A model generated the notes under the pieces. That model did not search any database. It was given only the letters and a program-made list of their open reading frames with translations, and was not told the DNA's origin. Below are positions 33,598-58,034 of a stretch of 64,000 bases of DNA, piece by piece. A program made the position numbers and the translations under genes. Numbering within the stretch: the first letter of the stretch is position 1; every line of letters begins with the position of its first letter. The DNA is from an uncultured delta proteobacterium (lineage in GTDB: Bacteria; Desulfobacterota; WTBG01; CAIYCZ01): NCBI GenBank assembly GCA_963803975.1, contig CAWDOY010000014.1:64001-128000 (forward strand), read 5' to 3'.

Positions 33598-33856
33598 AAA
33601 TAGTTCCGTTTCTAATATTAAATAAGAAGTAAATAAATATAATAAGCAGTAGTTATACCGTCACGTATCTGTTTAAAAGATATCTAACCCTTAGATATCA
33701 GAGATTATTTATACTGTATTCCCTGTTGATTGTTCTTTTAAAAGAGACTCATAAAAAAAATAAAAAATTAATACAGCAAAATTACACGAAGTTTTACAGA
33801 AGTCAAAAGAAATATTTTTATGGTAGTGCACAGCAAAAAAACAGTTAAAATAAAAA
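33598..33856. other. Candidate oriC (dnaA-dnaN spacer)
   Basis: AT-rich; NAN trio-like run TATAATAAGCAGTAG; 1-mismatch DnaA box TGTTTAAAA at 33670-33678; IHF-like palindrome at 33679-33699. Confidence 0.6.
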
Positions 33857-35152
33857 TTAAAAATTTTGTATGATGGAGTCAATAATATTTTTTATTTTAT
33901 AGTCGCGCGTTATCTGTAACTCTATTTTTTTTATTGAATGAATTACCGTTGAATGATCCTTTCCACCAAAAATCTGTCCAATTTCCGGATAAGAAAGAGT
34001 GGTTAGTTTTCTCATCGCATACATGGCAACCTGCCTTGGCAAGACCACCGCACTGTTTTTTCTTTTGGTTTTTAAATCAGAAACCTTGGCATTAAAAAGT
34101 TTACAAACTAATTTTAAAATATCTTCCGGGGTGGTTTCTTTTTTTACTGCAATAACTTCTTTAAGAACCTCTTTTGTAAAATCCAGAGAGATATCCGTGC
34201 CGTAGAGGGAAGAATAGGCAATGAGACGGTTTAAAAAACCCTCCAGTTCTCTAATATTAGAACGGACATTACTGGCAAGAAAAAAAGCAACGTCGTTAGG
34301 TAGGTTAATGTTTTCTAAAACAGCCTTTTTTTTAAGAATGGCAACCTTGGTTTCTGTATCCGGAGATTGAATATCAGCAATCAGTCCCCATTCAAAACGG
34401 GAGCGCAGACGGTCTTCCAAACCCGGTATTTCCCGGGGGGTTTTATCGCTGGTGACAACCAGCTGTTTTTTTAATTCAAACAGCGCATTGAACGTATGAA
34501 AAAACTCCTCCTGGGTTCGTTCTTTTCCGGCTATAAATTGTATATCATCCAGGAGCATCATATCCATGTTTCTATATTTATTTCTAAAGGCCGTCATTTT
34601 TTCAAAACGTATGGAGTTAATCATCTCATTGGTAAAATTTTCCGCGGTAGTATAACAAATTTTTAACCGGCTGTTGTTACTGAGACACTGCTGAACAATA
34701 GCATGGAGCAGATGGGTTTTTCCCAGCCCGACACCACCATACATAAAAAGGGGATTATAGGTTCTTCCCGGGTGATTTGCCACAGCCATACAGGCAGCAT
34801 GGGCAAACTGATTACTGGAACCAACCACAAAATTATTAAAGACATATCTGGAATTTATGTTTTTAGGTATAAGTGCTGCTTGATCAGTATTGTCTGCCGG
34901 CAGTTCCGGGGTGTTTTTAATGGTAAAACATATTTCTGGCCGGGTGCCGGTTAAGGTAAACAAAACCCCTTTTATAATATCCAGATAGTTTTCTTTTAAC
35001 CAATCTGAAAAGAATTGGCTGGGGACCTCAATAGAGATAGTAGAAGCAGACAGGCTTTTAAGCTGAAGGGGCTTAAACCACGATTCATATATCTGCGCGG
35101 AGGTCTTTTCTTTTATGCTGTTTAAAAAATTTTCCCAGAAGGTTTTCAACAA
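33857..35152 (-). CDS. dnaA: Replication initiator DnaA (TTG start)
   Basis: YNPLFMYGGVGLGKTHL, DDIQF, RLRSRFEWG, GGKDHSTVIH. Confidence 0.97.
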   Translation of the reverse strand: MLKTFWENFLNSIKEKTSAQIYESWFKPLQLKSLSASTISIEVPSQFFSDWLKENYLDIIKGVLFTLTGTRPEICFTIKNTPELPADNTDQAALIPKNINSRYVFNNFVVGSSNQFAHAACMAVANHPGRTYNPLFMYGGVGLGKTHLLHAIVQQCLSNNSRLKICYTTAENFTNEMINSIRFEKMTAFRNKYRNMDMMLLDDIQFIAGKERTQEEFFHTFNALFELKKQLVVTSDKTPREIPGLEDRLRSRFEWGLIADIQSPDTETKVAILKKKAVLENINLPNDVAFFLASNVRSNIRELEGFLNRLIAYSSLYGTDISLDFTKEVLKEVIAVKKETTPEDILKLVCKLFNAKVSDLKTKRKNSAVVLPRQVAMYAMRKLTTLSYPEIGQIFGGKDHSTVIHSIKKIELQITRDYKIKNIIDSIIQNF

Positions 35153-42936: not shown

Positions 42937-43078
42937 GGCTGTTGAAAAACACCCATCTGCTGCGTTGCGCTTATCCCTCGTCATTGCAGCGTACCGCGCA
43001 GTACGCCTCATTCCTCGTGATTGCGCGCGCCTTGCATCTGAATGTTTTTGACCAGCCCGAAACATTTTTTCAATAACC
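42937..43078 (+). repeat. MITE-like repeat, copy E
   Basis: Reverse complement of A-D; starts 2 nt after the TGA of the PPIase gene. Confidence 0.85.
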
Positions 43079-43126
43079 TGCTAATACAGCAGCTACAGTT
43101 CGCAGAGTCCGGAGAATGGCTGAATA

Positions 43127-43579
43127 ATGGCTGGTGGAGAGAACCCGGAGTTGGTTATCGATAAGGAAGGGACCTGGCTTTATAACGGACAGCCGATTGT
43201 AAACAAGGCTATTTATCTCTTCTTTAATCAGAACCTGGAATATAGCCCGGCGGGCGGATACCAGGTCCGGGTCGGCGCAGAAGTCTCCCCGGTTGCGGTG
43301 GAAGATACACCGTTTGTGGTTACGGACGTGGTTTTGGTTGAGCAGGGGGAGAGCTTTTTTAAAATTCATCTCAATGACGAAACAGAAGAGCCGCTTGATC
43401 TGGAATCGCTCTCGGTGGGAAAAGATAATGTGCTCTACTGCGCGGTAAAGAGCGGAAAGTTCAGTGCCCGCTTTCTACGGCCCAGCTATTACCGCCTGAC
43501 CGAGCACATGCAGCAGGAGGGAGAAGACCGGTTCTATATTCCCCTGAACGGGAGGAAGTATTATATAAACAGTGACTAG
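43127..43579 (+). CDS. DUF1285-like protein
   Basis: IDKEGTWLYNG, VEDTPFVV, ARFLRPSYY. Confidence 0.7.
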   Translation: MAGGENPELVIDKEGTWLYNGQPIVNKAIYLFFNQNLEYSPAGGYQVRVGAEVSPVAVEDTPFVVTDVVLVEQGESFFKIHLNDETEEPLDLESLSVGKDNVLYCAVKSGKFSARFLRPSYYRLTEHMQQEGEDRFYIPLNGRKYYINSD

Positions 43580-43597
43580 TGCGTGCAGCGACAGGCA

Positions 43598-43727
43598 GTG
43601 GAAAGTGGAAGGTGAAAAGTGAAATTTCCCATTCACCTATTCACCGACTCACCCATTCACCGCAATCCCCTCGCCCCCTGAACCCTTTTATATTCCTGTG
43701 TGCCTATTGCCTGCTGCCTGTTGCCTT
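43598..43727. repeat. Composite 7/8-mer tandem-repeat patch
   Basis: GTGRAAR x4, CCnATTCA-like x4, nnCCCCT-like x3, TGCCTnn x4. Confidence 0.65.
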
Positions 43728-43729
43728 TT

Positions 43730-44547
43730 TTATTTCCCCAGCTCCCTTGACCTCTGCGTTGCCGCCTCCACCGCATCCATGACCAGCCCCTTAAAGCCCG
43801 CCTTTTTCAAGAACATGCAGGCCGCTTATGGTGGTGCCGCCCGGCGAGGTGACCTGCTCTTTCAGCTTTGTCGCTGATTCCTGTGTTTCCTTTACCAGCG
43901 TTGCCGCGCCATAGATTGTCTGGGCCGCAAGCTCTGCGGCAACAGCTCTTGTCAGCCCCACTTTCACCCCGGCATCAATTAATGCTTCGAGAAAGAGAAA
44001 GACATAGGCCGGGCCGCTGCCGCTAAGGCCCGTCACCGCATCCATGAGCTTTTCATCAACGAGCACGGTTTTTCCCAGCGCGGCAAATATTTTCTCCGCT
44101 GCAGCCAGGTCCTGGCTGGTTGCGCCGGGGCCGGAGCAGAGAGCGGTTGCGCTTTCAAGAACCCGCGCTGCAGTGTTCGGCATGGCACGTATTACGCGGC
44201 AGTTGCCGGAGAGAAGCCCTGCAATAGCATCGGTCTTAACGCCGGCTGCGATGGAAAGGAAGAGTTTTGTTTTGTCTGAAGCCGCCGCGCATTCTTTCAT
44301 GACCGCGGGCAGAACCTGCGGCTTTACCGCGATGATGATGACGGAAGAATCAGCGACCAGCTTTTTGTTGTCAGAGCAGGTCTTTATTTTGTAGGAGTCC
44401 TTAAGAAATTTCAGCCGCTGCGCGGTGACGTCAGAGACGGTAATCTGCTGACGGAGAAAAGACTTTTGCCTTGATAATGCCGCGGATGATGGCCTCACCC
44501 ATGGCCCCGCCGCCAAGAATGCCAAGCTTTACTTTCTTTAAATCCAT
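43730..44547 (-). CDS. proC: Pyrroline-5-carboxylate reductase (apparent frameshifts near 44450 and 43795)
   Basis: GILGGGAMG, AVKPQ, RAMPNT, SGSGPAY, SPGGTT, AVEAATQRSREL. Confidence 0.93.
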
Positions 44548-44565
44548 AACCACTCCCTCCTTTTA

Positions 44566-44653
44566 TGTCATTGCGAGTCCACCTTGAGTGGACGAAGCAA
44601 TCTCCTGTTATGATAAAGCCATTCACATTTTAGTGTGAGTTTATGGAATGACA
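44566..44653. repeat. REP/REPIN-like remnant at the left island edge
   Basis: TGTCATTGCGAG..CGAAGCAATCTC and distal GGAATGACA; internal GTCCAC-N5-GTGGAC hairpin. Confidence 0.5.
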
Positions 44654-44820
44654 AGGTCATTGTCAACTGGTTTGACAGGCTCCCACAAGCGAAATCCCCG
44701 TATTAAGCTAAAAATCTTGACAGCTTAGCCATTTACTTTATATTGAGAGAACAATATAAAGAAGAAGCATAAAAAACAATGTTATGACGCTCAACCAGCG
44801 CCAGGGAGATAGGAATCCAA

Positions 44821-47363
44821 GTGTCCGACAAGGAAGCCACAGCCCGTATCAAGATCAATAAGCTGCTCGAAGCGGCAGGCTGGCGTTTCTTTCCGCAGAG
44901 GAAGCGCGCCCGCCAACATCCGCCTTGAGCCCAGCGTGACGATCAAGTCATCCGATCTGGAAGCACTTGGCGAGAACTTCGAAAAGACGAGCAAGGGCTT
45001 CATCGACTTCCTGCTTTTAGACACCAAAGGCTTCCCGCTCATCGTCCTTGAGGCCAAGTCCGAGGACAAGAACCCGCTCGTGGGCAAGGAGCAGGCCCGC
45101 AAATACGCCAAGTCCCAGAACTGCCGCTTCGTCATCCTCTCCAACGGCAACCTGCACTACTTCTGGGATCTGGAGCGCGGCAACCCCTACCTCATTACGT
45201 CCTTCCCTACGCCGGACTCGGTGATCGGCTACCAGCAGGTCACGCCCAACCCGCAACGCCTCGTCGAGGACCAGGTCAACGACGACTACATCGTGCTGAC
45301 CCAGCGCCCGAACTACCAATCCGAAGCAGCGTGGAAGAGCGAGGCCGAGCGTCCCGGCTACATCCAGGCCAATAAACTGCGTTTCTTGCGGCCCTATCAG
45401 TTGAAGGCCATTCACGCCCTGCAACGGGCCGTGAAGGACGGCAAAGACCGCTTCCTGTTCGAGATGGCCACCGGCACCGGCAAGACTCTCACTGCCGCCG
45501 CCGTCATCAAGCTCTTCCTCCGTTCCGGCAATGCCCGGCGCGTGCTGTTTCTGGTGGATCGCCTCGAACTGGAGGATCAGGCCAGGAAGGCCTTCAAGGC
45601 GCTGCTGTCTGCGGACTTTCAGACGGTGATCTACAAGGAGAACCGTGACGACTGGCGGCGGGCGGAAATCGTTGTCACCACGGTGCAGTCGCTGCTCTTC
45701 AACAACAAGTACCAGCGGCTCTTCTCGCCGACTGATTTCGACCTGGTAATTTCCGACGAAGCCCACCGCTCCATCGGCGGCAACGCCCGCGCCGTCTTCG
45801 ACTACTTCATCGGCTACAAGCTCGGCCTCACCGCCACGCCCCGCGACTATCTCAGGCGGTTTGACAACACCAACCCTTCTACCCGCGACCCGCGCGAAGC
45901 CGAGCGCCGACTGCTGCTGGATACCTACCGCACCTTCGGCTGCGAGAACAGCCAGCCCACCTACCGCTATTCGCTGCTCGACGGCGTGAAGGAAGGCTTT
46001 CTGATCAACCCCACCGTGGTGGATGCCCGCACCGAGATCACCACCGAACTGCTTTCCGAAGAGGGCTTCGTCGTCTCGTTCACCGACGATACCGGCGAGG
46101 ATCAGCAGGAGGCCTTCAAGCAGCGGGAGTTCGAGAAGCGATTCTTTGCCAAGGCCACCAATGAGCTCTTCTGCAAGACCTTTCTGGAAAACGCCCTGCG
46201 CGATCCGGTCAGCGGGGAGATCGGCAAGTCCATCATCTTCGCGGTCAGCCAGAACCACGCCGCCAAGCTGGCGCAGATCCTCAACCAGATGGCCGACCGC
46301 ATGTTCCCCGGCAAGTACCAGTCCGACTTCGCCGTGCAGGTCACATCAACGATTCCCGACGCCCAGCAGTTCACCATCAACTTCACCAACAACAACCTGC
46401 TCGGTTCGGCCAACTTCCTGCCCGCTTACAAGACCAGCAAGGCGCGTGTCTGCGTTACGGTTGGCATGATGACCACAGGCTACGATTGCACCGACATTCT
46501 CAATCTCGGCATGTTCCGCCCGATTTTCTCGCCGACCGACTTCATCCAGATCAAGGGGCGCGGCACCCGCAAGCACAATTTCCTCGAACAGCTTTTCGAC
46601 GACAGCATCAAGGAAGGCGTGACGCAGCCGCAGAAGTCCGCATTCAAGCTCTTCGACTTCTTCGCCAACTGCGAGTACTTCGAGGAGGAGTTCAACTACG
46701 ACGAGGTGCTGAAGCTCCCCCGGCCTTCAAGCAAGGGTGCTGGCACAGGCGGAGGCATAGGCCCGGTGGTATTTGGCGGCACCTACGAGCACCTCGGCGC
46801 GGATATCCTCTCCTCGATCAAGGTGGCAGAGATCGGTAGCGAAGGCATGAAGATTGACCGCATGTTCTTCGAGAAATTCGAGGACACCGTGCGCGAGAAC
46901 GAGACGATCGCCGCCGCCGTCGAGTCAGGACAATGGGATCGCGTCATCGACTACGTGAACCGCGAGGTCTTCGACAAACCCGAGGAGTACTACACCCTCG
47001 ACAAGCTGCGCAAAGCCGCTGCCGTGGATCGCCGCCTGACCCTGCGGGAAATCCTGGAGAAGATCTTCGGCCTCATCCCGCGCTTCAAGTCCAAGGACGA
47101 ACTGCTGGAAGAGGAGTTCGCCAAGTTCGTCGCCGACGCCAAGCCCGACGAGGCTGGGGCCATCCCGGCTATCAAGAACTATTTCAAGGCGTACCTCACC
47201 AGCGATCAGGTGCGCCACATCATCGAGAGCCGCCACTTCACCGACCTGGCCACCAACCCGGTCTTTTCCACCCGCGACTTTCAGCGCCGTGCCGCAGAAG
47301 TACCGGACGCTGATCCCTGAATACGTCAAGGACTACGTCTCCTTGAACCAGTTCGCCGCATGA
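44821..47363 (+). CDS. hsdR: Type I restriction subunit R (frameshifts near 44900 and 47285)
   Basis: IDFLL..LEAK nuclease motif, LRPYQ, MATGTGKT, DEAH, TAT, TGYD, QIKGRGTR. Confidence 0.92.
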
Positions 47364-47376
47364 GAGAACGAATGGT

Positions 47377-48030
47377 ATGACCGCCAACGAACCGTTGATC
47401 ACCGAAGCATGGTGGCTACCGAAAGCTCAAGAGCTTTCAGGTGGCGCAGCTGATGTATGATGTGACGGTCCGTTTTTGCGACCGCTACATCGACAAGCGC
47501 AGCCGTACCCACGACCAGATGGTGCAGGCGGCGCGGTCGGGTGTGCAGAACATCGCCGAAGGGAGTCAGGCCTCGGGAACCTCGAAAAAGACCGAACTCA
47601 AACTCACCAACGTGGCGCGGGCCAGCCTGGAAGAGCTGCGGCTCGACTACGAGGATTTCCTGCGCCAGCGCGGCCTGCCGATCTGGGAGCGTGACGATCC
47701 TCGCCGGCAAGAATCTGATTGACCGCCGGTGCGCCACTGCCGATGAAGTGGCGCGTGGGTGCGGGAAGAGCATGATCGTGGACGGGGTGGACAAAGTGGA
47801 CCCAGTGGACAGAAAAGTCATCGTCCACAGTCCACCAGTCCACCTTCCCCGAGCTTGCCGCCAACGCCGCACTGGTGCTGCTGGCGGTCGCCTGCAGCCT
47901 GCTCGACCGCCAGCTCGCCGCCCAGGCAAAAGCGTTTGAAACCGAGGGCGGCTTCACCGAACGCCTCTACCGCGTTCGTTCGAAAAGCGCGTTCGCCCCG
48001 TCCACTTCGTCCACCAAGTCCACTAGCACT
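47377..48030 (+). CDS. Four-helix-bundle protein with suffix domain (Avd/IVP-like); frameshifted, 3' end uncertain
   Basis: KHGGYRKLKSFQ, DQMVQAARSGVQNIAEG, ARASLEELRLDYEDFL, GGFTERLY. Confidence 0.85.
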
Positions 48031-48040
48031 GAGGTTTCTC

Positions 48041-50625
48041 ATGCTCGACACCGACACCAAACGCCGCATCGACACCGCCCGCGACATCCTCGTGGGCAAG
48101 GTGCCCGACCCCAAGAGCCAGGTCGAGCAGATCACCATCGCCCTGATCTACAAGTTCATGGACGACATGGACGCCGAGAGCGAGGAGTTCGGCGGCAAGC
48201 GCAAGTTCTTCGCCAAGGAGTTCGCCCGCTACGGCTGGGCCAAACTCATGCGCTCCGGCCTGGGCGGCCACGAGACCCTGAACCTCTACGCCGAGGCCAT
48301 TACCAAGATGCCGGAGAACCCCGGCATTCCGCCGCTCTTCCGCGACATCTTCAAGAACGCCTATCTGCCCTACCGCGACCCCGAAACGCTCAAGATGTTC
48401 CTCAAGGTCATTGACGAGTTCACCTACGACCACAGCGAACGCCTCGGCGACGCCTTCGAGTATCTGCTCTCCGTGCTCGGCTCCCAGGGCGACGCCGGGC
48501 AGTTCCGCACCCCGCGCCACATCATTGATTTCATGGTCGAGATCATCGACCCGAAGAAGACCGAGACCGTGCTCGATCCGGCCTGCGGCACCGCCGGATT
48601 CCTGATCTCGTCCTACAAGCACATCCTGCGAGCCAACAGCTTCAAGACATGACGTCCACATGGTAGCCAGTCCAATCCACCCTGTCCACCTGCAAACCCT
48701 TACCCCCGACGAGCGCGGCGAGGCTCGCTGCACAACTTCAAGGGCTACGACATCTCGCCCGACATGGTGCGCCTCTCGCTTGGTGAACCTGTATCTGCAC
48801 GGCTTCGCCGACCCGCATATCTACGAATACGATACCCTTGCCAGCCAGGACCGCTGGAACGATTACGCCGATGTCATCCTTGCCAATCCGCCCTTCATGT
48901 CGCCGAAGGGGGGTATCATGCCCCACAAACGCTTCTCGGTGCAGTCCAAGCGCAGCGAAGTGCTCTTTGTGGACTATATGGCCGAGCACCTCACACCCAA
49001 CGGCCGCGCCGGCATCATCGTGCCCGAAGGCATCATCTTCCAGAGCCAGACCGCCTACAAACAACTGCGCAAGATGCTGGTGGAGGAGTACCTCGTCGCC
49101 GTCGTCTCGCTGCCGGCGGGTGTGTTCAATCCCTATTCCGGCGTCAAGACCTCGATCCTGATCCTCGACAAGTCGCTGGCGAAGAAGACCAACACCATCG
49201 CCTTCTTCAAGGTCGAGAACGACGGCTTCGGCCTCGGCGCCCAGCGGCGCGAGATTGACAAGAACGACCTGCCCGCCGCTTTAGCCGGCAATTAAGAAGT
49301 ACTGAATTAGGACATTATGAATGGCGAGGATGTCCTGGCTCCTGACTTCACAATTCATCCTTCGGCCTGCATCATTGTGCCAAAGGAGAAGATCGCCGCG
49401 AACGGCGACTACAACCTGAGCGGGGAGCGGTATCGGGAGGGGGCGATGCAGCCATCTCGTTTCCGCTGTGTCTCCTTGGCGACATCGCAGACTATTCCGA
49501 GTCGAAAGCGGTGGAACTCCGAAGTCCGACGTAGAAGAGTACTGGAACGGCGGCATTCCCATGGGCGACGCTGGTCGATCTTCCGCAACAGATTTCATCA
49601 CTGAAATCACGTCGACGCAAGCGAACGTATCTCCGAGCGAGGTCTGCGCGAATCTTCAGCGAAGATGATCCCAGCGAACTCGGTCGATCGTCTCGACACG
49701 TGCAACTATTGGACGCATTGCCATCAATCGCGTTCCGATTGCTACGAATCAAGGATTCAAGAACGTCGTGATCGAAGACGTCGACACGGGCACTTCCTGA
49801 GTATGTCGCGCTTGCTACTGCACAGAGCTTGTGCCGACGATGGATGCATGGGCGACTGGCGGGCACATTCAACGAGATTTCAAAGTCGAAGTTCTGCGAA
49901 CTCCAAATCCCCCTGCCGCCGCTGGAGGTGCAGAAGGAGATCGTGGCGGAGATCGAGGGCTACCAGAAAGTCATCGACGGCGCCCGCGCCGTCCTCGACA
50001 ACTACCGCCCCCACATCCCCATCCACCCCGACTGGCCGATGGTGGAGTTGGCGAAGATCTGCACGAATCACTCAAGGCAAGCTCACGCCGCTCGAAGGCG
50101 ATCCGATTACGTGGAAGGCTACGATCCGTTCTATGGGTGAGACATTCGTCGATTACAGACGTCAATGGATCAGCCTTGAATCTGACGTCATCGCAAGAAG
50201 GTCGAACGAGTATGCCGACTGGCTCGGCAAAAGCGAGCATTGCTAATCATTGCTCGTCAGTGGTGCATCGGCAGGCTATCTGCGATTGTGGCAATCGACG
50301 CGCGCATTCAACGGTTTACTGACGGCATTCAGACTATAATGAGATCGATCAATCTGACGATTCTTGATTCCTACTTCTTCAAATGCTCGATTCGACGAAT
50401 TGATCGGAGAATAAGTCGAGTGCGAGCAGCCATGCAAGCTACTCAGCAATCGATCATGAAGGAAGTCTCGAAATCCCCCTTCCACCCCTCGCCACCCAGC
50501 AAGCCATCGTCGCCGAGATCGAAGCCGAGCAGGCGCTGGTCGCCGCCAACCGCGAACTGATCGCCCGCTTCGAGAAGAAGATCCAGGCCACCCTCGCCCG
50601 CGTCTGGGGGGAGGATGAAGGATGA
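48041..50625 (+). CDS. N6-adenine methyltransferase fused to two-TRD specificity module (HsdM-HsdS); multiple frameshifts
   Basis: GQFRTPRH, DPACGTAGF, NPPF; HsdS repeats IPLPPLEVQKEIV and IPLPPLATQQAIV. Confidence 0.85.
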
Positions 50626-50691
50626 GGGATGAATTATGAATGATGAATAAAGAATAAAAAAGGAAGAAGGATGAATTGTGAATGATGAAAG
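50615..50691 (+). repeat. Heptamer array, 11 x ATGAAnn-like in exact 7-bp register
   Basis: ATGAAGG ATGAGGG ATGAATT ATGAATG ATGAATA AAGAATA AAAAAGG AAGAAGG ATGAATT GTGAATG ATGAAAG. Confidence 0.85.
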
Positions 50692-51055
50692 GAAGAACCA
50701 GGAGCCGAAGGATTTGCAGATTCGGACGAAGGAATTTGCGTTACGGGTGATTCGGATGTATTCCGCATTACCAAAGTCAACCGAAGCGCAGGTGTTGGGC
50801 AAACAGGTCCTACGTTCCGGCACATCCGTTGGCGCCAATTACCGCGAGGCCAATCGGGCGCGTTCAAAACCGGAGTTCATCGCCAAGATCGGGGACTGCC
50901 TCAAGGAACTCGACGAAACCGCCTATTGGTTTGAGCTGCTGGCCGAGTCGTCGATTGTACCCAATGCGAGACTTGCCGATCTGCGTGATGAATGCGATCA
51001 ACTCTTGGCAATCTTCACCACCATCTCAAAGAAGACGAAGGCCAATGCTTCATAA
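50678..51055 (+). CDS. Four-helix-bundle protein (Avd/IVP-like)
   Basis: RTKEFALRVI, QVLRSGTSVGANYREA, KELDETAYWFELL. Confidence 0.9.
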   Translation: MNDERKNQEPKDLQIRTKEFALRVIRMYSALPKSTEAQVLGKQVLRSGTSVGANYREANRARSKPEFIAKIGDCLKELDETAYWFELLAESSIVPNARLADLRDECDQLLAIFTTISKKTKANAS

Positions 51056-51076
51056 TTCAACCTTCATCATTCATGC
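51049..51076 (-). repeat. Inverted heptamer array closing the four-helix-bundle gene
   Basis: TTCATAA TTCAACC TTCATCA TTCATGC. Confidence 0.75.
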
Positions 51077-51110
51077 TTTCCCCCTGGAGGCGTGAGCCCG
51101 CAACCATTAA

Positions 51111-51608
51111 TTGGAAAAAGATAAAATGACACTGCTTGAACCAGCACGTGCAAATGCTTTCCTTGCCCAATACAAACGTCTCCTGTGCACCATTGCAGCC
51201 AAACCGCTGAAGATCATAAATGACTACAGCGAGGTTCGCAAAGTGCTTTATAAGGATGGCTTCAACAAATCCTTTGTCTTTGACTCGTCATACGAGGAAT
51301 CGTTTGTCAATGCCGTAAGAAACGCGACATACGGCATGTTTGTCTATGCCAAGAAATACAGGAGTGGCTATGCACTCAAGGTCTCGGACGACACCTGGTT
51401 TTGCGTTAAGGCGCTGACAACTCCTCTGGAAGAGTTGATCCCGGAGTGGTGCGTCATTGACACGGCGGTGCTACCCTATTGCGGGCTTATCATTTGTGAC
51501 GGGCTCATTGTGGACCGGCACGTATCCATTGGCCCGAACATGATCGCATCCATGACGCAGGAGCTGAAAACAGAAAGAAAAAAGTGGTCAGCCACGAAGG
51601 CAATTTAG
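51111..51608 (+). CDS. Hypothetical protein
   Basis: 165-aa ORF; TAVLPY.G.IICDGL segment; no family recognised. Confidence 0.55.
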   Translation: MEKDKMTLLEPARANAFLAQYKRLLCTIAAKPLKIINDYSEVRKVLYKDGFNKSFVFDSSYEESFVNAVRNATYGMFVYAKKYRSGYALKVSDDTWFCVKALTTPLEELIPEWCVIDTAVLPYCGLIICDGLIVDRHVSIGPNMIASMTQELKTERKKWSATKAI

Positions 51609-51680
51609 GAGAGGCTTGGAGGGTCGGTCACTCGCCATGTCAAAGGTAGACCCCATAACATACTGGGGGGCGAAGAAGTT

Positions 51681-52067
51681 GTGTGGGGAATAAACTATCG
51701 TAGTCTGCCTAAGCGCCCATCTTTATCGCTCACCGAAGAAAGACGCCTCATAGCTAAAGCGAAGAGAGGATATAAAGCAGAAACCGAAGAGCTCGTCCTG
51801 CGCTATGTTGGCTTTATAATCTTTCGCATCCACAAGAAGGCCTTTCCATCCTATGCAGCCCGCTTTGGTGAAGAGATTCTTGCCCAAGCGGTGTTTATTT
51901 TGTACGACAAAATTAAGACCTATAACCTTCGCTACAGGGATAAGAATGGCGATTTAAAGCCGGTCAGGTTTTCCTCATATATCTGGAAGAGGATCGATGG
52001 GTTCATTCTGGATTCTTTGAAAGAAGAACTGGCAAGGGAAAGGCGTCAAGTAAGCCTTGACTGGTGA
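51681..52067 (+). CDS. Sigma70 region-2-like protein without region 4
   Basis: LSLTEERRLIAKAKRG...EELV and RFSSYIWKRIDGFILDSL. Confidence 0.5.
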   Translation: MWGINYRSLPKRPSLSLTEERRLIAKAKRGYKAETEELVLRYVGFIIFRIHKKAFPSYAARFGEEILAQAVFILYDKIKTYNLRYRDKNGDLKPVRFSSYIWKRIDGFILDSLKEELARERRQVSLDW

Positions 52068-52109
52068 AGTTATGAGCATCCACCGGACCCAACAATATAT
52101 AAATAATAC

Positions 52110-52138
52110 TTGACCGCTTCACCCAGGATGGCTATACT
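52110..52138 (+). promoter_or_regulatory. mazEF promoter
   Basis: TTGACC-17-TATACT, GGAGG RBS downstream. Confidence 0.6.
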
Positions 52139-52164
52139 TTGGATATACATTAGGAGGTGGTCAC

Positions 52165-52413
52165 ATGCTTGCAAAAATTCAAAAATGGGGAAATAGCCAG
52201 GGACTTCGTCTTGCGAAGAATCTGCTCGCAGATTCACACCTCGGTGTCGGGGATGAAGTGGATATTAGCGTAAAAGACGGCACGATCATCGTTGCCCCGG
52301 CAAAAAGGATGCGCGGGCGGCATAATCTTAAGGATCTTGTGGCGGGTATTCCTAAAAACCACCAAACAGGCGAATTTGAATGGGGGGAACCTGTCGGCAA
52401 GGAGGTTTGGTAG
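52165..52413 (+). CDS. mazE: AbrB/MazE antitoxin
   Basis: KIQKWGNSQGLRL, WGEPVGKEVW. Confidence 0.92.
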   Translation: MLAKIQKWGNSQGLRLAKNLLADSHLGVGDEVDISVKDGTIIVAPAKRMRGRHNLKDLVAGIPKNHQTGEFEWGEPVGKEVW

Positions 52414-52749
52414 ATGGCCGCATATATTCCCGGGCAAGGGGATATCATCGCAATCACCTTTGATCCACAGTCTGGTCATGAACAGAAAGGACGGCGCCCT
52501 GCTTTTGTTGTCAGCAAGGACCTGTTCAACAGAAGCACCGGTTTGGCTATGGTGTGCCCAATTACAAAAACAGATCGGGGGTTTCCCTTTCACGTACCTA
52601 TCCCGGAAGGCAGTAAACTGACGGGCTTCATTATGGTAGAGCAAGTTAAATCGGTCGATTTCCGTGCTCGTCAGGCTAAGCGCATTGAACACGGCAACGA
52701 TGAGTTGCTATCAGAGGTGCTCGCCATATTAGACGCCTGTATCTACTAA
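52414..52749 (+). CDS. mazF: MazF/PemK toxin
   Basis: FDPQSGHEQKGRRPA, CPIT, EQVKSVD. Confidence 0.93.
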   Translation: MAAYIPGQGDIIAITFDPQSGHEQKGRRPAFVVSKDLFNRSTGLAMVCPITKTDRGFPFHVPIPEGSKLTGFIMVEQVKSVDFRARQAKRIEHGNDELLSEVLAILDACIY

Positions 52750-52836
52750 CCAGCCAACCTGTCGCTTCATGGGAAATCCGGAAACACCTTACTGGTTTTA
52801 ATTGACAAGGCTGTTCTGTTGTATAAACAAAACACC

Positions 52837-52941
52837 TTCAACCCTCTCCCCCGCCAGATCATAGGTAAGCCCGCTGGTAATTTTCACCTTCACAAATGAC
52901 CCGGCCGCAGCGCACCCCTTTTTAATATACAGAACCCCGTT
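52837..52941 (-). repeat. Displaced copy 1 of the rimO 3' end
   Basis: Encodes NGVLYIKKGCAAAGSFVKVKITSGLTYDLAGERVE; 37-bp core identical to rimO 54765-54801. Confidence 0.92.
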
Positions 52942-52981
52942 AAGATCAGAGACCTGGAATCATCCAAAGAAATAACTTCTC

Positions 52982-53010
52982 TTGACGCCCGTGCGTCATT
53001 GGCGTATAGT
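52982..53010 (+). promoter_or_regulatory. Promoter/operator of the toxin-first TA pair
   Basis: TTGACG-17-TATAGT with palindrome TGCGTCATTGGCGTA; ATG 7 nt after -10 (leaderless). Confidence 0.6.
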
Positions 53011-53016
53011 TTAAAT

Positions 53017-53331
53017 ATGTTGTTTATTGAAACCCCCGTATTCACTAAAGAAATCCAGAGGCTGATTACAGATGATGAATACAAGAAGCTGCAACAGGAT
53101 CTAATGCTGCGGCCCGCAGCCGGGAGAATTATAAAAGGAAGCAGGGGTTTGCGAAAAATTCGCTGGCAGCTTCCTGGAGAAGGCAAAAGAGGCGGATTGC
53201 GCGTAATTTATTATTGGGATCCCCCAGAGATTATATATATGCTGTTTCCATATAAAAAAACCGAGCAGGAGGATTTGACACCTGCTCAAGTGAAGATACT
53301 AAAAAAAATGGTCAAGGAGTGTTTGTCATGA
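53017..53331 (+). CDS. RelE/HigB-family toxin
   Basis: MLFIETPVF, GLRKIRW, GKRGGLRVIYY, YKKTEQEDL. Confidence 0.9.
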   Translation: MLFIETPVFTKEIQRLITDDEYKKLQQDLMLRPAAGRIIKGSRGLRKIRWQLPGEGKRGGLRVIYYWDPPEIIYMLFPYKKTEQEDLTPAQVKILKKMVKECLS

Positions 53332-53618
53332 AAGAGAAGGCGTTTACAAAACTGTTAGCAAGTATTAAAGAGGCCGGGCAGATTAGGGCGGGCCGTAAAC
53401 AGCCAGGCAGAATTTTTAGAATAGACCCTCCGAGCATTAAAGCTGTGCGAAGGAAGCTGCATCTTTCACAAAGTGAATTTGCTCTTATGATTGGTGTCAG
53501 CACCAGCACCTTGCAGAACTGGGAACAGGGCCGGCGAGAGCCGGATGGTCCGGCGAAGGCTTTATTAAAAGTTGCCTCTCAAAACCCCGAAGCTGTTATG
53601 GAAGCACTGCATTCCTAA
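53328..53618 (+). CDS. HigA/NadS-like XRE HTH antitoxin
   Basis: LSQSEFALMIGVSTSTLQNWEQGRREP. Confidence 0.9.
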   Translation: MKEKAFTKLLASIKEAGQIRAGRKQPGRIFRIDPPSIKAVRRKLHLSQSEFALMIGVSTSTLQNWEQGRREPDGPAKALLKVASQNPEAVMEALHS

Positions 53619-53625
53619 TAAAACA

Positions 53626-53671
53626 TACGCAGGTCAGGAAAAGAAGAGGTAGCGTTATATGAAGGCGAGTG
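53626..53671 (+). pseudogene. 3' remnant of a BrnT-like toxin
   Basis: RRSGKEEVALYEGE* overlapping the start of the next antitoxin. Confidence 0.55.
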
Positions 53672-53883
53672 AATTTGACAAAAAGTTCAATGAGGGCCGG
53701 GATATTTCCAAACACCTGGACATTGCAAAAGCGAAACGGCAAGGACGTGAACAAAAAAGAGTCAATGTGGATTTTCCTCTGTGGATGATTCAGTTATTGG
53801 ATAAAGAAGCAAGGCGTTTGGGTGTTCCGCGACAGTCCATCATAAAGGTGTGGGTAGCCGAGCGTCTTGAAAAAGCCTCTTAA
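53659..53883 (+). CDS. BrnA/CopG-like antitoxin (orphan)
   Basis: MKASEFDKKF, KRVNVDFPLWM, LGVPRQSIIKVW. Confidence 0.85.
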   Translation: MKASEFDKKFNEGRDISKHLDIAKAKRQGREQKRVNVDFPLWMIQLLDKEARRLGVPRQSIIKVWVAERLEKAS

Positions 53884-53903
53884 TTTTAAAACAAAACTTC
53901 TCT

Positions 53904-53977
53904 TCAGATAATCTCTCCCGCCAGGTCATAGGTAAGTCCACTGGTAATTTTCACCTTCACAAATGACCCGGCCGCAG
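53904..53977 (-). repeat. Displaced copy 2 of the rimO 3' end
   Basis: Encodes AAGSFVKVKITSGLTYDLAGEII*; same 37-bp core at 53941-53977. Confidence 0.92.
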
Positions 53978-54072
53978 AGCTTCATATAGCTGAAAAGCCT
54001 TGCTTCACAAGCAAGATGACAATATAATAGAAAAAAACGAATTCAAACTTCAGGAGCACCTCGCATAGAGAT

Positions 54073-54270
54073 ATGCCCCGTCTGGATAAAACGCAACTTA
54101 CTATATCTTCCCTTGATGAATTTACGGAAGAGAAACAATATTGGCTATCCCGGGAGCAAGGCTGACCGCTTGAATGCAATCGAGATTAACCGCAGGATGA
54201 TTTATGGCACAGATCGAACTGCAGCCAGACTTCAAAGAATTCTTGAAACTGCTGAACTCTCATTGCGTTG
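54073..54270 (+). CDS. Small partner of the nucleotidyltransferase (frameshifted)
   Basis: MPRLDKT..KQYWLSR / DRLNAIEINRRMIYG..RLQRILE. Confidence 0.5.
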
Positions 54271-54663
54271 AAGTATCTTGTCGTTGGCGGATATGCTGTG
54301 GGGTATTATGGCTATCCGCGGGCCACTGGCGACATGGATATTTGGATCGCAGTAAGTGAAGTAAATGCCGAAAAGACCGCGCAGGCTACTTGCGTGAGTT
54401 TGGCATGCCGGAGAAAGCAGGCGAACTTAAAGATTTATTCACTCGAAACAGGACAAGATAATTCGAATGGGTGTTCCCCCTGTCCGGATCGAAGTAATAA
54501 CCAGGAGCCTCTGGTGTAAACTTTGAAGAATGCTATTCGCGACGAGAGGTAATAGACATAGACGACATACCGGTGAATTTCATTTCGCTCGAGGATCTAA
54601 GAGCCAACAAGCAGACCTGCGGCAGGTATAAGGATCTGGAGGATTTAAAACATCTCGCCATAA
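54204..54663 (+). CDS. Nucleotidyltransferase-like protein (several frameshifts)
   Basis: DFKEFLKLLN, YLVVGGYAV..G.PRATGDMD, MGVPPVRIE, ISLEDL..NK..GRYKDLEDL. Confidence 0.75.
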
Positions 54664-54724
54664 CAATCGAGTCAACCCGGGCCGGCAATTCCGCTGCAAA
54701 AAAAGATTTACTTTTAAGCTATTC

Positions 54725-56083
54725 TCATTCAACAATCTCTCCCACCAGATCATAGGTAAGTCCGCTGGTAATTTTCACCTTCACAAATGACCCGGCCGCA
54801 GCACGACCTTCTTTTATATAGACCATCCCATCCACCTCCGGCGCCTGGAACACTGCCCTGCCCTGCAGCGCAAAGCCCTTTTTCTGCGACGGGCCTTCAA
54901 CCAGCACTTCTATTTGTTGTCCTGTCCGTGCGCGGTTTTTCTTGCGCGAGATTTTTGCCTGCAGGCTCATGATGGCGTGATAGCGCTCTTCTTTAATTTT
55001 CTCCGGAACCTTGGGCAAGAGTTTTGACGCAGGGGTTCCTTCCTCGTCCCGGTAGCGAAAAACCCCCAGGTGCTCAAATTCAAATTCAGCAACAAATTTT
55101 AAGAGGGATGAGAAGTCCCGCTTTGTCTCCCCGGGGAACCCGACCATAAAGGTGGTGCGCAGGGAAATGTCCGGCACCTTCTCCCGCAGGGCGTAGAGAA
55201 GCTTTTCAATGCGCTGCCCGGTTATCCTCCGGCCCATGCGCTTCAGAACCGGGTCGCTTATGTGCTGCAGGGGAAGATCGAGATAGCTGCAGATTTTCTG
55301 TTCTGCGGCAAGCAGGGAAATTAATGCATCAGTGATTGTCAGGGGATGGCAGTACAGAAGGCGCAGCCAGGTTATATCGGGAATGCGCACGAGCTTTTTT
55401 AACAGCGCGGCCAAATCGTCTTTTTGCCCGCGCTCCAGACCATACCGGGTTGTGTCCTGGGCAATGAGATTGATTTCCTTTACGCCCATTGCCGCAAGGT
55501 TTTTAACTTCCGCGACGATTGAGCGGGGCGTGCGGCTTACATACGGCCCGCGGATTTTGGGAATAGTGCAGTAGGTGCAGCAATGAGAGCAGCCCTCGGC
55601 AATTTTTACATACGCGGTGTAGCGGGGCGTTGCAAGAATGCGGGGCGTAGCAGGGTTTAAAAGATACGTTGCATGATCAGTAAAAATTTTTGCTTTTTGT
55701 TGTCCAGCTTCCAGTTTTTTTATGTAGCGGGCAATGTGCTGAAATTCTCCAGTGCCGATAAAAAGATCAACTTCCGGCAGCTCCTGCACAAGGCTCTCTT
55801 TATATCTCTGGGGCAGGCAGCCGCACACAACGAGATATTGGCAGGCGCCTCGTTTCTTCTCCTCGGCCAGAGATAGAATGGTTTCTATGGCCTCCCTGGT
55901 TGCCTCTTCAATAAAAGCGCAGGTGTTTACTATAATAATGTCTGCAGCTTTTCTGTCCGGAGTCAGCACATGGCCGGCCTGTACCAGAACTCCCTGGATG
56001 ACTTCGCTGTCGACCAGGTTTTTCGCGCATCCCAGGCTCACCAGATAAACGGAGCGGCTCGCGAGAGCAGGGTTTAATTCCAC
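54725..56083 (-). CDS. rimO: Ribosomal protein S12 methylthiotransferase
   Basis: SLGCAKNLVDSE, NTCAFI, KIAEGCSHCCTYC, APEVDG, C-terminal TRAM YDLVG. Confidence 0.95.
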   Translation of the reverse strand: MELNPALASRSVYLVSLGCAKNLVDSEVIQGVLVQAGHVLTPDRKAADIIIVNTCAFIEEATREAIETILSLAEEKKRGACQYLVVCGCLPQRYKESLVQELPEVDLFIGTGEFQHIARYIKKLEAGQQKAKIFTDHATYLLNPATPRILATPRYTAYVKIAEGCSHCCTYCTIPKIRGPYVSRTPRSIVAEVKNLAAMGVKEINLIAQDTTRYGLERGQKDDLAALLKKLVRIPDITWLRLLYCHPLTITDALISLLAAEQKICSYLDLPLQHISDPVLKRMGRRITGQRIEKLLYALREKVPDISLRTTFMVGFPGETKRDFSSLLKFVAEFEFEHLGVFRYRDEEGTPASKLLPKVPEKIKEERYHAIMSLQAKISRKKNRARTGQQIEVLVEGPSQKKGFALQGRAVFQAPEVDGMVYIKEGRAAAGSFVKVKITSGLTYDLVGEIVE

Positions 56084-57048
56084 GAATCTCCTTTTTCAAA
56101 GTCCGGCAGAAACTCGCCGTTTATCTCTTCGTATTCCTGCAGCCAGCCGTTCTCAAAACCCAGTGCTGTCAAGGTTTCGATGGCGCGCTCATATTCCTCA
56201 GGGGAGGTTCTTTTGCTTATCTCTTTATGCTGGTGAGCTTTATGCGCGGGCAGATACTGGCACATAAGGCTGATATGCACATCAGCGCCAAGATGAGATT
56301 TAATTCTCTCCAGCACCTCTTGCGTGCCGGCGATATTTTCCGGAAGCACCAGGTGCCGGATGATAAGCCCGCGCACGGCAATGCCGTGTTCATCTAACAC
56401 CAGGGGGCCGACCTGGGCATACATTTCCTTGAGCGCCGCCAGGTTAATTTGAGAGTAATCTTTTGCCTGCGAATATTTTTTAGCCAGGGCATCATTAGCA
56501 TATTTTGCGTCAGGAAGATATATATCAACGACTCCCGAGAGCAGCTTCAGGGTTTCAAGTGATTCATAGCCGTTTGAATTATAGACCAGAGGAAGCGATA
56601 GCCCTTCAGCGGCTGCAATGCAGAGGGCCTCTACGATGTGCGGCAGGAAGTGCGTCGGCGAGACGAGGCTGATATTGTGGCACCCCGCTTTCTGCAGGGA
56701 AAGCATCTTCTGCGCAAGCGCTTCAACGGTGAGCTTTTCACCGAGACCTTCCTGGCTGATCTGATAATTCTGACAGAAGCAGCACGTGAGATGGCAGTGG
56801 CTGAAAAAAATGGTGCCCGCGCCCCGGGTACCCGACAGAACCGGCTCTTCACCAAAATGAGCAAGTGCTTTAGCGACCTTCAATTCACCGGGTGCCTGAC
56901 ACTTTCCGCGCTGACCGCTGGTGCGGTCAGCGCCGCATTGCCAGGGGCAGAGCCGGCATGAGGAAAACAGCTGCCATAACAGCTCAGCACGCTTGCGCAG
57001 GATTCCCGCGTCATGAAGTTGTTTATAGCCGGGTAATGTGGTATACAT
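56074..57048 (-). CDS. PflX-like radical SAM protein
   Basis: CRLCPWQC, HFGEEP, CHLTCCFCQN, RHLVLP. Confidence 0.85.
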   Translation of the reverse strand: MYTTLPGYKQLHDAGILRKRAELLWQLFSSCRLCPWQCGADRTSGQRGKCQAPGELKVAKALAHFGEEPVLSGTRGAGTIFFSHCHLTCCFCQNYQISQEGLGEKLTVEALAQKMLSLQKAGCHNISLVSPTHFLPHIVEALCIAAAEGLSLPLVYNSNGYESLETLKLLSGVVDIYLPDAKYANDALAKKYSQAKDYSQINLAALKEMYAQVGPLVLDEHGIAVRGLIIRHLVLPENIAGTQEVLERIKSHLGADVHISLMCQYLPAHKAHQHKEISKRTSPEEYERAIETLTALGFENGWLQEYEEINGEFLPDFEKGDSWN

Positions 57049-57176
57049 AAAAAAATTATAGGTGCCAGAGCACCTGATGTCAATTCTGAAAACAGCAATA
57101 CCGTGCCGACGGGCTTTTTCGCTTCCAAATAACGGCGCGTAAGCACAGCACCCAACCGCCCCTTAATTGTTTCTTT

Positions 57177-58034
57177 ATGAGCTATCGGATTATAGTATTA
57201 GTAAAGCAGGTGCCGGATACCAAAGCAATTTCTTCTAAGGCGATGAATCCGGACGGTACCCTCAATAGAAGCGCACTCCCGGCCATCTTTAATCCGGAAG
57301 ATTTGCATGCCCTGGAAGCAGGATTACAGCTCAGGGAGCGCTACGGGGGAATAGTTACCGTCATCACCATGGGGCCTCCGTCAGCAGCAGAGGTGCTCAG
57401 AGAGTCTCTCTACCGGGGAGCAGACGAAGTAATTCTCTTAACCGACCGTCAGTTTGCCGGCTCTGATACCCTTGCCACCTCTTATATATTAAGCCGGGCC
57501 ATCAGCAAGACCGGGCACTATGATATTATTTTATGCGGTCGGCAGGCAATAGATGGGAATACTGCACAGGTGGGTCCCCAGGTTGCGGAAAAGCTCGGGC
57601 TGCCGCAGATAACCTCTGTTGAAGAAATAGTACAAATTGACAGCGGAAAAATCTCGGCCTGGAAAGTGGTAGAACGGGGTAAGGAGCTTTTAGAAGTTCC
57701 CCTGCCTGCGGTTCTCACCGTTGTTGACACTGCCGGCAAACCCCGGCCTCCGTCAGCAAAAAAAATCATGCGCTTTAAAAAAGTAAAAGCATTCGGAGAG
57801 GCAACGCCCGAAGAGGCGCAGGCATTAAAAGAACGGGGACTGCTTATTCGAGAATGGAATGCAGAGCAGATAGGCGCCGATCTTTCCCGGTGCGGGATTC
57901 AAGGCTCACCAACGAAAGTACAGAAGATTAAAAAAGTAGTACTGAAGGCAAAAGACATTAAACAGTATGCGGCAACAGATGAGAGCCTCTCGCAGTTGTT
58001 GCAGGAGCTGATACAGGAGCATACGTTTGATTGA
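57177..58034 (+). CDS. etfB: Electron transfer flavoprotein beta subunit
   Basis: KQVPDT, NPED, MGPP, GSDTLATS, GRQAIDG, GSPT. Confidence 0.93.
   Translation: MSYRIIVLVKQVPDTKAISSKAMNPDGTLNRSALPAIFNPEDLHALEAGLQLRERYGGIVTVITMGPPSAAEVLRESLYRGADEVILLTDRQFAGSDTLATSYILSRAISKTGHYDIILCGRQAIDGNTAQVGPQVAEKLGLPQITSVEEIVQIDSGKISAWKVVERGKELLEVPLPAVLTVVDTAGKPRPPSAKKIMRFKKVKAFGEATPEEAQALKERGLLIREWNAEQIGADLSRCGIQGSPTKVQKIKKVVLKAKDIKQYAATDESLSQLLQELIQEHTFD

What the first reader, a model, noticed from the sequence alone, without database searches (positions are those of the whole stretch)
52837..54832. Integrase-free TA cassette array delimited by repeated copies of the rimO 3' end
Seen: the last ~70-105 bp of rimO occur three times in direct orientation (52837, 53904, native 54725). 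They share an identical 37-bp core, CTGGTAATTTTCACCTTCACAAATGACCCGGCCGCAG, with spacings of 1067 and 824 bp. The intervals hold small modules: HigB/HigA with its own promoter plus an orphan BrnA, and a nucleotidyltransferase pair. Copies stay in frame with RimO and many differences are third-position synonymous (AGC/AGT, GGA/GGG, GAT/GAC, ATA/ATT). Established: elements that integrate into gene 3' ends restore the gene and leave the displaced end downstream. Inference: ~1 kb cassettes have been added one after another at rimO, each bringing its own allele of the RimO C-terminus, with recombinase supplied in trans or by host recombination. No integrase is present in the window.
Basis: partly seen in the sequence, partly recalled or inferred. 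Interest (0 to 1): 0.8.

Follow-up and report, generated by a model that had tools for sequence, protein, structure and literature searches.

The report
Toxin-antitoxin cassettes between gene-end copies
Small toxin-antitoxin and nucleotidyltransferase gene modules have piled up behind the housekeeping gene rimO, most of them separated by a copy of that gene's last codons; the copies are real and are reshuffled between species, but they look like scars of general homology-driven DNA uptake seen at many genes of this genome, not the sites of a dedicated integrase.

Summary
Observation confirmed: three direct copies of the rimO 3' end (37-bp core at 52874, 53941, 54765) separate two small modules. 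Not an assembly artefact and not fixed: another species of the genus has three copies with the modules reordered, and another genus has two short copies. But the 37-bp core is no att site: copies start at five different points (-114 to about 0), share only 19 bp, and two carry foreign rimO alleles. The genome has only XerC/D-like recombinases, but has ComEC, DprA and RecA, and the same layout recurs at several unrelated gene ends with no shared motif. Best reading: 'insertion with long target duplication' by homology-anchored uptake of a relative's DNA, then exchange within the copies. Circles were not seen. The scan reported this pattern before in other genomes. New variant of a known, mechanistically unsettled footprint; interest moderate.

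The parts
54725..56083 (-). rimO, intact, 452 aa; its present 3' end (GEIVE*) is the allele linked to the nucleotidyltransferase module
   Evidence: TIGR01125 above cut-off; allele linkage
54725..54850 (-). native rimO 3' segment that is copied (37-bp core 54765-54801; 19-bp minimal shared motif 54736-54754)
53978..54721 (+). module A: promoter region, small 67-aa gene (about 54074-54271) and DUF6036/DUF2204-like nucleotidyltransferase (about 54204-54660), both frameshifted here
   Evidence: promoter plus small gene 279/294 identical to G001; single extra bases against relatives' contigs (table 4)
53904..53977 (-). copy 2 of the rimO end (starts 47 bp before the TAT of TYDL; ends GEII*, the Brn-linked allele)
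   Evidence: same left junction as the outer G001 copy
53659..53883 (+). BrnA antitoxin without its toxin; only the last ~35 bp of the upstream (BrnT-like) gene remain
   Evidence: NF047399; comparison with L052 and L061
53626..53635 (+). fusion point of two parent modules (HigBA plus unknown gene; BrnT-like plus BrnA) at an 8-of-10 microhomology
52999..53618 (+). RelE/HigB-like toxin (52999-53331) and HTH antitoxin (53319-53618)
   Evidence: PF06296, PF01381, NF041265
52982..53010 (+). sigma-70-like promoter of the HigBA pair; 35/38 identical in G002
52912..52959 (-). foreign arm of copy 1: 16 rimO-like codons, 29/48 identical to the host gene, from a lineage not sampled
   Evidence: 11 third-position, 7 first, 1 second-position differences; random-mutation control P=0.002
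52837..52911 (-). host-like part of copy 1 (63/66 identical over -48..+18), ending in the outermost RVEG allele
52165..52749 (+). MazE/MazF pair beyond the last copy, same orientation, own promoter at 52110-52138
   Evidence: PF04014, PF02452
44936..52067 (+). rest of the variable region: type I restriction-modification genes (59% GC, frameshifted), four-helix-bundle genes, two unknown ORFs; no further rimO copies
43791..44546 (-). proC-like gene (named by eye, not scanned): the conserved far flank of the variable region, also in G002 and G003

Best explanation
This is the rimO-proximal part of a variable gene region between rimO and a proC-like gene, built without an integrase. Step 1 (inferred): a piece of DNA from a relative enters the cell carrying the end of its rimO gene, the small module behind it and a cut flank. 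Step 2 (inferred; experimental precedent in E. coli): the rimO piece recombines by homology, while the far end is joined illegitimately, either by end-joining into a circle that integrates by one crossover, or directly inside the resident rimO end. Result: rimO restored with the donor's last codons, the module, a one-off junction, then a displaced rimO end of arbitrary length in front of the older cargo. Step 3 (shown by comparison, mechanism inferred): once a module has a rimO arm on its far side it is bracketed by homology and can be inserted, deleted or reordered by crossovers inside the copies; microhomology deletions fuse or orphan genes (BrnA). Toxin-antitoxin pairs probably persist because their loss is counter-selected (established for TA systems in general, not tested here).
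For: Left ends of copies lie at -114 (G001 middle), -96 (copy 1), -47 (copy 2 and G001 outer), about -12 and about 0 (G002) relative to the TAT of TYDL; in L062 two modules abut with no copy. Two arms are foreign rimO alleles with a coding signature (P=0.002 and 5e-5 against random mutation) that match none of six native alleles better than 31/48 or 90/114; copy 1 is a foreign/host mosaic, as a single crossover predicts. One left junction (-47) is followed by different 3' alleles in G000 and G001, and Brn-linked SNPs are present in L061 and copy 2 but not in G001, so crossovers fall at different places. Same layout at unrelated CDS ends, terminators and tRNAs of G000, with no motif shared above shuffles among 18 repeats tested. 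At a hydrolase gene G001 has the same TA-like pair without a copy, and G000 joins the same flank abruptly into the hydrolase 68 bp before its stop with 1-2 bp shared. ComEC, DprA and RecA present; only two XerC/D-like tyrosine recombinases plus a fragment, no serine recombinase match. In E. coli, trimmed, recircularised donor DNA integrating by one crossover gave 109-950 bp duplications (PMC3240628).
Against: No event was observed; only four genomes of the family, two metagenome contigs and four runs of contigs are available. Homology of 20-70 bp is short for RecA. All rimO copies do keep one 19-bp motif with a weak inverted repeat, which a recombinase could use. G001-G003 hold 2-3 extra tyrosine recombinases each on other contigs, and rimO is a reported island site in Acidithiobacillus (PMC10322971). 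Competence genes do not prove competence. Classical HFIR usually gives deletions, not duplications (PMC3240628 introduction). The hydrolase comparison could also be read as a later replacement in G001.
Confidence: 0.65

Rival explanations
1. Site-specific integration: the modules are non-autonomous islets or eroded islands that used a rimO-specific integrase, supplied in trans or since lost, with the crossover in the 19-bp TYDL-GE motif (not the 37-bp core).
For: All 10 rimO ends and copies in the four family genomes keep the motif; it contains a weak inverted repeat around 8 bp (seen by eye); rimO is an island site in Acidithiobacillus (PMC10322971 passages; its table lists no integrase for that island); extra integrases exist in G001-G003.
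Against: The 8-bp centre of the motif comes in four variants; the motif is simply the last conserved codons, which any 3'-end copy must include; arms upstream of it are rimO-derived and of five lengths; no recombinase on any contig with a copy; no hit in viral contigs; one integrase cannot explain the other loci.
Confidence: 0.15
2. Dedicated parasitic mini-islands: modules excise and integrate as small circles through RecA-independent host recombination between long imperfect repeats, like the E. coli microcin H47 island.
For: H47 has no recombinase, long imperfect repeats and crossovers in four identity blocks (PMC3191183 abstract and section 7; PMC5426353 abstract); here too crossovers vary and the same arm-module unit occurs in two species.
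Against: No go-back joint among the 9 joints listed from four runs (contigs drop rare forms, so weak); does not explain how the foreign arms or the copy-free form at the hydrolase locus arose.
Confidence: 0.12
3. Local tandem duplication of the rimO end followed by decay, with genes later inserted between the copies.
For: Parts of the copies are 93-95% identical to the host gene; the outer G001 copy shows decay-like changes (G to W).
Against: Foreign arms keep the protein sequence far better than random decay; 3' alleles travel with their modules between species.
Confidence: 0.05
4. Assembly artefact: strain haplotypes concatenated at the repeat.
For: Module A has about 10 extra single bases against relatives' contigs, suggesting thin read support (table 4); no listed contig spans the whole stretch.
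Against: An independent genome has three copies in one 2.2-kb contig, with a left junction identical to copy 2; G002 has two copies in one contig; copies begin with abrupt non-rimO junctions, which concatenation would not make. The exact order in this assembly is unverified.
Confidence: 0.03

Closest known systems
Insertion with long target duplication (Nobusato 2000, seen only as a reference; Furuta, Abe and Kobayashi 2010, PMC2853133, passages and Discussion read)
   Same: Small selfish-gene insert, no mobility genes, long and variable direct duplications unique in the genome, some overlapping gene 3' ends, mostly in competent species; mechanism unsettled.
   Different: Described for restriction-modification genes as single inserts with near-identical repeats; here the cargo is TA and nucleotidyltransferase modules, stacked serially, with mosaic and foreign-allele copies, some under 30 bp.
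Homology-facilitated illegitimate recombination and trimmed-circle single-crossover integration (PMC3240628, passages and Discussion read)
   Same: One homologous anchor plus an illegitimate join; the circle route gave variable partial gene duplications of 109-950 bp in most clones of that class.
   Different: Laboratory conjugation in E. coli at about 4e-9; classical HFIR gives deletions; no natural serial arrays shown there.
C-terminal displacement arrays of T6SS effector-immunity and Rhs loci (Kirchberger 2017, PMC5361080, passages read)
   Same: Sequential insertion at an anchor gene pushes older modules downstream; no integrase; later exchange of whole arrays by homologous recombination.
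   Different: There the displaced part is the functional toxin tip; here the anchor is a housekeeping enzyme whose last 3-8 residues are merely swapped, and the cargo is independent, on the opposite strand.
Microcin H47 island of E. coli (PMC3191183 abstract and section 7; PMC5426353 abstract)
   Same: No recombinase gene, long imperfect direct repeats, several crossover positions.
   Different: One 13-kb island with shown RecA-independent excision; not an array; mobility untested here.
Minimal mobile elements and MGE-free hotspots (PMC1797815 passages; PMC5635113 search listing and start of abstract only)
   Same: Different gene sets between the same two conserved genes (rimO and a proC-like gene) in G000, G002, G003.
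   Different: Those are swapped by recombination in the flanks and need no internal copies of the flank gene.
Integron arrays and CALINs (from own knowledge)
   Same: Co-oriented small TA-rich cassettes added next to one site.
   Different: No IntI, no attC-like sites at gene ends; modules carry their own promoters and point towards, not away from, the insertion site.

Membership tests
Insertion with long target duplication (Furuta 2010 criteria) | Insert under 20 kb with no mobility gene | tested here: met
   Modules of 0.74 and 0.94 kb; no recombinase or transposase family among their ORFs
Insertion with long target duplication (Furuta 2010 criteria) | Direct duplication longer than 30 bp, variable in length | tested here: met
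   74 and 123 bp here; about 140 and 70 bp in G001; about 36 and 22 bp in G002, the last below the threshold
Insertion with long target duplication (Furuta 2010 criteria) | Insert holds both R and M genes | tested here: not met
   Cargo between the copies is TA and nucleotidyltransferase genes; works like it, but is not an R-M case
Insertion with long target duplication (Furuta 2010 criteria) | A relative has one copy of the target and no insert | tested here: inconclusive
   G003 has a single rimO end but other cargo; run X6 joint 52819 to 54735 fits an empty site but has only 39 letters on the short side
Site-specifically integrated island (attL/attR) | Tyrosine or serine integrase in or next to the element | tested here: not met
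   G000: two XerC/D-like genes and one fragment, none on this contig; no PF00239 or PF07508 match
Site-specifically integrated island (attL/attR) | One invariant crossover core in all att sites | tested here: not met
   37-bp core diverged or absent in 4 of 6 non-native copies; 19-bp motif varies at three positions
Site-specifically integrated island (attL/attR) | Excision as a circle with attP | tested here: inconclusive
   No go-back joint among 9 joints from four runs of contigs, which drop rare forms
Integron / CALIN | attC sites (RYYYAAC...GTTRRRY hairpins) after cassette genes | tested here: not met
   One pattern match in 52000-54800, inside mazF, weak fold (simple pattern recalled from memory, not a covariance model)
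Integron / CALIN | Integron integrase in the genome | tested here: not met
   Only the xerC-like gene before hslV/hslU, a xerD-like gene and a fragment
Xer-exploiting modules (dif/pdif) | dif-like 28-bp sites at module ends | tested here: not met
   No match on this contig with up to 5 mismatches to a recalled dif consensus; the genome's own dif was not identified
HFIR / trimmed-circle integration | Host DNA uptake and RecA machinery | tested here: met
   ComEC, DprA, RecA above cut-off; competence itself not testable
HFIR / trimmed-circle integration | Illegitimate far junction with little or no homology, at variable places | tested here: met
   Five start points at rimO; 1-2 bp join at the hydrolase locus; donor side of the rimO junctions not available
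HFIR / trimmed-circle integration | RecA dependence | not testable with these tools
   Needs genetics

The most novel reading that the evidence does not exclude
TA modules in this family have become self-targeting 'gene-end docking' units: each carries the last codons of a conserved gene on one side and a rimO-derived arm on the other, circulates between species and genera as a non-replicating mini-circle, and docks with host enzymes alone, giving integron-like arrays with neither integrase nor attC. The same route would seed cargo behind many other genes of the genome.
Probability: 0.25. Interest if true: 0.7.

Novelty: new variant of a known kind. Interest (0 to 1): 0.42.

Why it matters
How small TA and defence modules move when no mobile element is nearby, and how 'long target duplications' arise, are open questions. 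This locus, with the hydrolase locus, gives sequence-level clues rarely seen together: variable junctions, foreign/host mosaic copies, the same module with and without its copy, and reordering between species. These favour a general homology route over the restriction-break model and give a small construct that can be tested in a laboratory strain. It also warns island-prediction work that a duplicated gene end is not proof of an integrase. It is not a new enzyme system, and this scan has noted the pattern in other genomes.

Tried and rejected
37-bp core as att core: rejected. Recombinase beside another core copy: none; the core occurs only three times in G000. Viral contigs: no match to the 20-bp motif and no relative of the RimO C-terminus. 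Genome collection scan with a 25-bp pattern gave only the G001-type contig. Repeated rimO ends outside the family: none in 20 loci with 0.4-15 kb downstream, 18 of them outside the family, and none among 33 of 42 class genomes with a match, except G000 and G001 (this query misses copies as short as those of G002). Rfam: no match in 43000-57500; no tRNA there. dif-like and attC-like sites: not found. Folding of the copies: one of six z-scores below -2, not consistent. Common motif among 18 repeats picked by hand from the 56 rows: none above shuffles. Sequencing runs: best share of words 0.46, all contigs; no piece spans the array, and the informative joints have short sides (24, 39 and 46 letters), so they are hints only. 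Literature: 8 searches showed no paper on TA arrays between copies of a rimO or other CDS end; one search returned none; the library lacks most subscription papers, and the original HFIR and Nobusato papers were not available. No supplements were read.
Full report
Observation. The 37-bp core sits at 52874, 53941 and 54765, 1067 and 824 bp apart, and only these three copies exist in the genome. The native copy is the end of an intact RimO (TIGR01125 above cut-off). Copy 2 covers 53904-53977; copy 1 covers 52837-52959. Between native and copy 2 lie a small gene and a DUF6036/DUF2204-like nucleotidyltransferase, frameshifted here and identified through the intact homologue in L057. Between copy 2 and copy 1 lie a promoter, a RelE/HigB-like toxin, an HTH antitoxin and BrnA. 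Beyond copy 1 follow MazEF, two unknown ORFs and type I restriction-modification genes up to a proC-like gene (named by eye); all cargo is on the strand opposite to rimO. The copies are codon-aligned to RimO but not in open frames.

Real and variable. G001 (same genus) has three rimO ends in one 2.2-kb contig: rimO, a BrnT-like gene (label by position; no NCBIfam hit) with BrnA, a copy, the small partner gene alone, a copy, then a calcium/sodium antiporter-like gene. G002 (another genus) has rimO followed by a 175-aa-type unknown gene and the HigA homologue, and on another contig two short copies flanking a Cache-like sensor fragment next to the proC-like gene. G003 has one rimO end and unrelated cargo. 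Two metagenome contigs have rimO joined directly to Brn (L061) or to the small partner gene, the unknown gene and HigA with no copy between them (L062). Of 42 class genomes, 33 matched the RimO C-terminus and only G000 and G001 had three matches; the pattern search adds G002. So the trait is confined to 3 of 4 family genomes among those searched. Laid contigs of four runs gave hints only: a contig from copy 2 through the small gene to a rimO end (24 letters on the short side), a joint skipping both modules (39 letters), and no go-back joint among 9 listed; no piece spans the array. About ten extra single bases in module A against relatives suggest consensus errors or a pseudogene.

What the copies show. 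The last codons follow the module, not the host: GEII* precedes Brn in G000 copy 2, G001 native and L061 native; GE(I/L)VE* precedes the nucleotidyltransferase partner in G000 native, G001 middle and L062 native; GE(R/M)VEG is outermost in both species. But the left ends differ: -114, -96, -47 (twice, the same junction), about -12 and about 0 relative to the TAT of TYDL. The 37-bp core is changed in both G001 copies and absent from both G002 copies; only TATGAYCTGGYGGGRGAGA is common. The first 16 codons of copy 1 are 29/48 identical to the host, with 11 third-position, 7 first and 1 second-position differences, and keep the protein better than random mutation (P=0.002); the G001 middle copy does the same (P=5e-5); neither is close to any of six native alleles. 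They are pieces of foreign rimO genes. Copy 1 is foreign on the left and 63/66 host-like on the right, the mosaic expected from one crossover between an incoming arm and the resident gene. Brn-linked SNPs are present in L061 and copy 2 but not in G001, so crossovers did not all fall at one place, though later gene conversion could mimic this. The orphan BrnA is explained: the HigA-unknown gene module of L062 and the BrnT-BrnA module of G001 share 8 of 10 bases at 53626-53635, where the window switches from one to the other.

Enzymes. G000 has two full tyrosine recombinases, one before hslV/hslU and one xerD-like (context read by eye), plus a fragment, none on this contig; no resolvase or large serine recombinase match (genome 98% complete, 57 contigs). 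G001-G003 have 4-5 tyrosine recombinases, none on a contig with a rimO end, but those of G001 and G002 are short. ComEC, DprA and RecA are present. No attC-like, dif-like, Rfam or tRNA feature marks the junctions.

The pattern is genome-wide. A self-comparison gave 56 low-copy direct repeat pairs of 25-300 bp, 0.25-10 kb apart, after dropping pairs wholly inside ORFs; many are paralogues. Among 18 picked by hand, gene-end copies bracket cargo at a hydrolase (AbrB/VapC-like pair), an etfA-like gene, a 5-formyl-THF cyclo-ligase-like gene, a 1313-aa gene (efflux cassette), a GGDEF gene, a terminator (ParD/ParE-like pair) and two tRNAs (cargo and gene names by eye). They share no 6-8-mer above shuffles. 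At the hydrolase, G002 and G003 lack the pair, G001 has the pair with no copy, and G000 has the same flank joined abruptly, with 1-2 shared bases, into a diverged hydrolase end 68 bp before the stop. There the copy is a by-product of one join, not a standing part of the module. At the cyclo-ligase-like gene the displaced copy resembles the G001 allele upstream more than the present G000 gene does (by eye).

Mechanism. Most likely (0.65): incoming DNA of a relative is anchored by the gene end and joined illegitimately at its far end, by a trimmed circle or directly, leaving a displaced end of arbitrary length; later crossovers inside the copies move, delete and reorder modules. Shown: variable junctions, allele linkage, foreign arms, reordering, absence of an integrase, recurrence at other genes. 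Inferred: uptake route, RecA, circles, selection for TA retention. Precedent: in E. coli, partly degraded, recircularised donor DNA integrating by one crossover gave 109-950 bp duplications in 14 sequenced clones, 56 of 60 clones of that class giving the diagnostic product (PMC3240628; passages and Discussion). Rivals: integrase in trans or lost (0.15), H47-like RecA-independent mini-islands (0.12), local duplication and decay (0.05), misassembly (0.03).

Known systems. The footprint matches 'insertion with long target duplication' (PMC2853133; passages and Discussion), a lead taken from earlier findings of this scan and checked against the paper; its R-M cargo criterion is not met. The serial layout parallels displacement arrays of T6SS loci (PMC5361080; passages). 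rimO is a reported island site in Acidithiobacillus (PMC10322971; passages). H47 is the closest recombinase-free island (PMC3191183 abstract and section 7; PMC5426353 abstract). PMC3457768 (passages) and PMC1797815 (passages) were read for context. Eight searches showed no paper on TA arrays between CDS-end copies; the library is incomplete.

Verdict. Real, dynamic and well illustrated, but a variant of a known footprint that this scan has met in other genomes, not a new recombination system. Interest 0.42; 0.7 if circles and host-only docking were shown (probability 0.25).

Noticed in passing
L074 (G000:C3:32451-33386) and L079, L080, L081: Second locus of the same build: hydrolase end, AbrB/VapC-like pair, 68-bp diverged copy, nucleotidyltransferase genes; G001 has the pair without the copy, G002 and G003 lack the pair.
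   Followed up: yes
G000:C47:57010-63755: A 6.4-kb TetR/outer-membrane/fusion/RND efflux cassette between 159-bp copies of the end and terminator of a 1313-aa gene, directly before the xerC-like gene and hslV/hslU.
   Followed up: partly
G000:C47:214451-218916 and G000:C45:17029-23937: Integrase-free cargo between copies of parts of tRNA-Arg(ACG) and tRNA-Leu(TAA) (48 and 55 bp).
   Followed up: partly
L076 (G000:C54:94753-95506): ParD/ParE-like pair between two copies of a terminator after a carboxylase-like gene; absent at that place in G001.
   Followed up: partly
G000:C5:66666-67402 and G000:C31:23098-25374: Here the promoter and 5' start of a REP-associated-transposase-like gene (named by eye) are duplicated around cargo, the mirror image of the 3'-end pattern.
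   Followed up: no
window 44936-51055: Type I restriction-modification block at 59% GC with many frameshifts and two four-helix-bundle (23S rRNA IVP family) genes between purine-rich inverted repeats (50606-50640 / 51049-51083).
   Followed up: no
window 54074-54660: About ten extra single bases against relatives' contigs, clustered in module A, while rimO is clean: thin read support for a minority allele, or a decaying gene.
   Followed up: partly
window 51681-52067: 128-aa ORF with no Pfam or NCBIfam hit that looks by eye like a sigma-factor region 2 fragment; well covered in all four runs, and in run X2 joined straight to the module A promoter without a rimO copy.
   Followed up: no
window 32470-34789: dnaN-like and dnaA-like genes with an AT-rich stretch and a change in GC skew nearby: the variable region lies about 10-20 kb from the probable origin.
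   Followed up: no
L057:1432-2295: In G003 the small partner plus nucleotidyltransferase pair sits at another locus, followed by a second partner-like small gene; the small partner has no Pfam or NCBIfam family.
   Followed up: no
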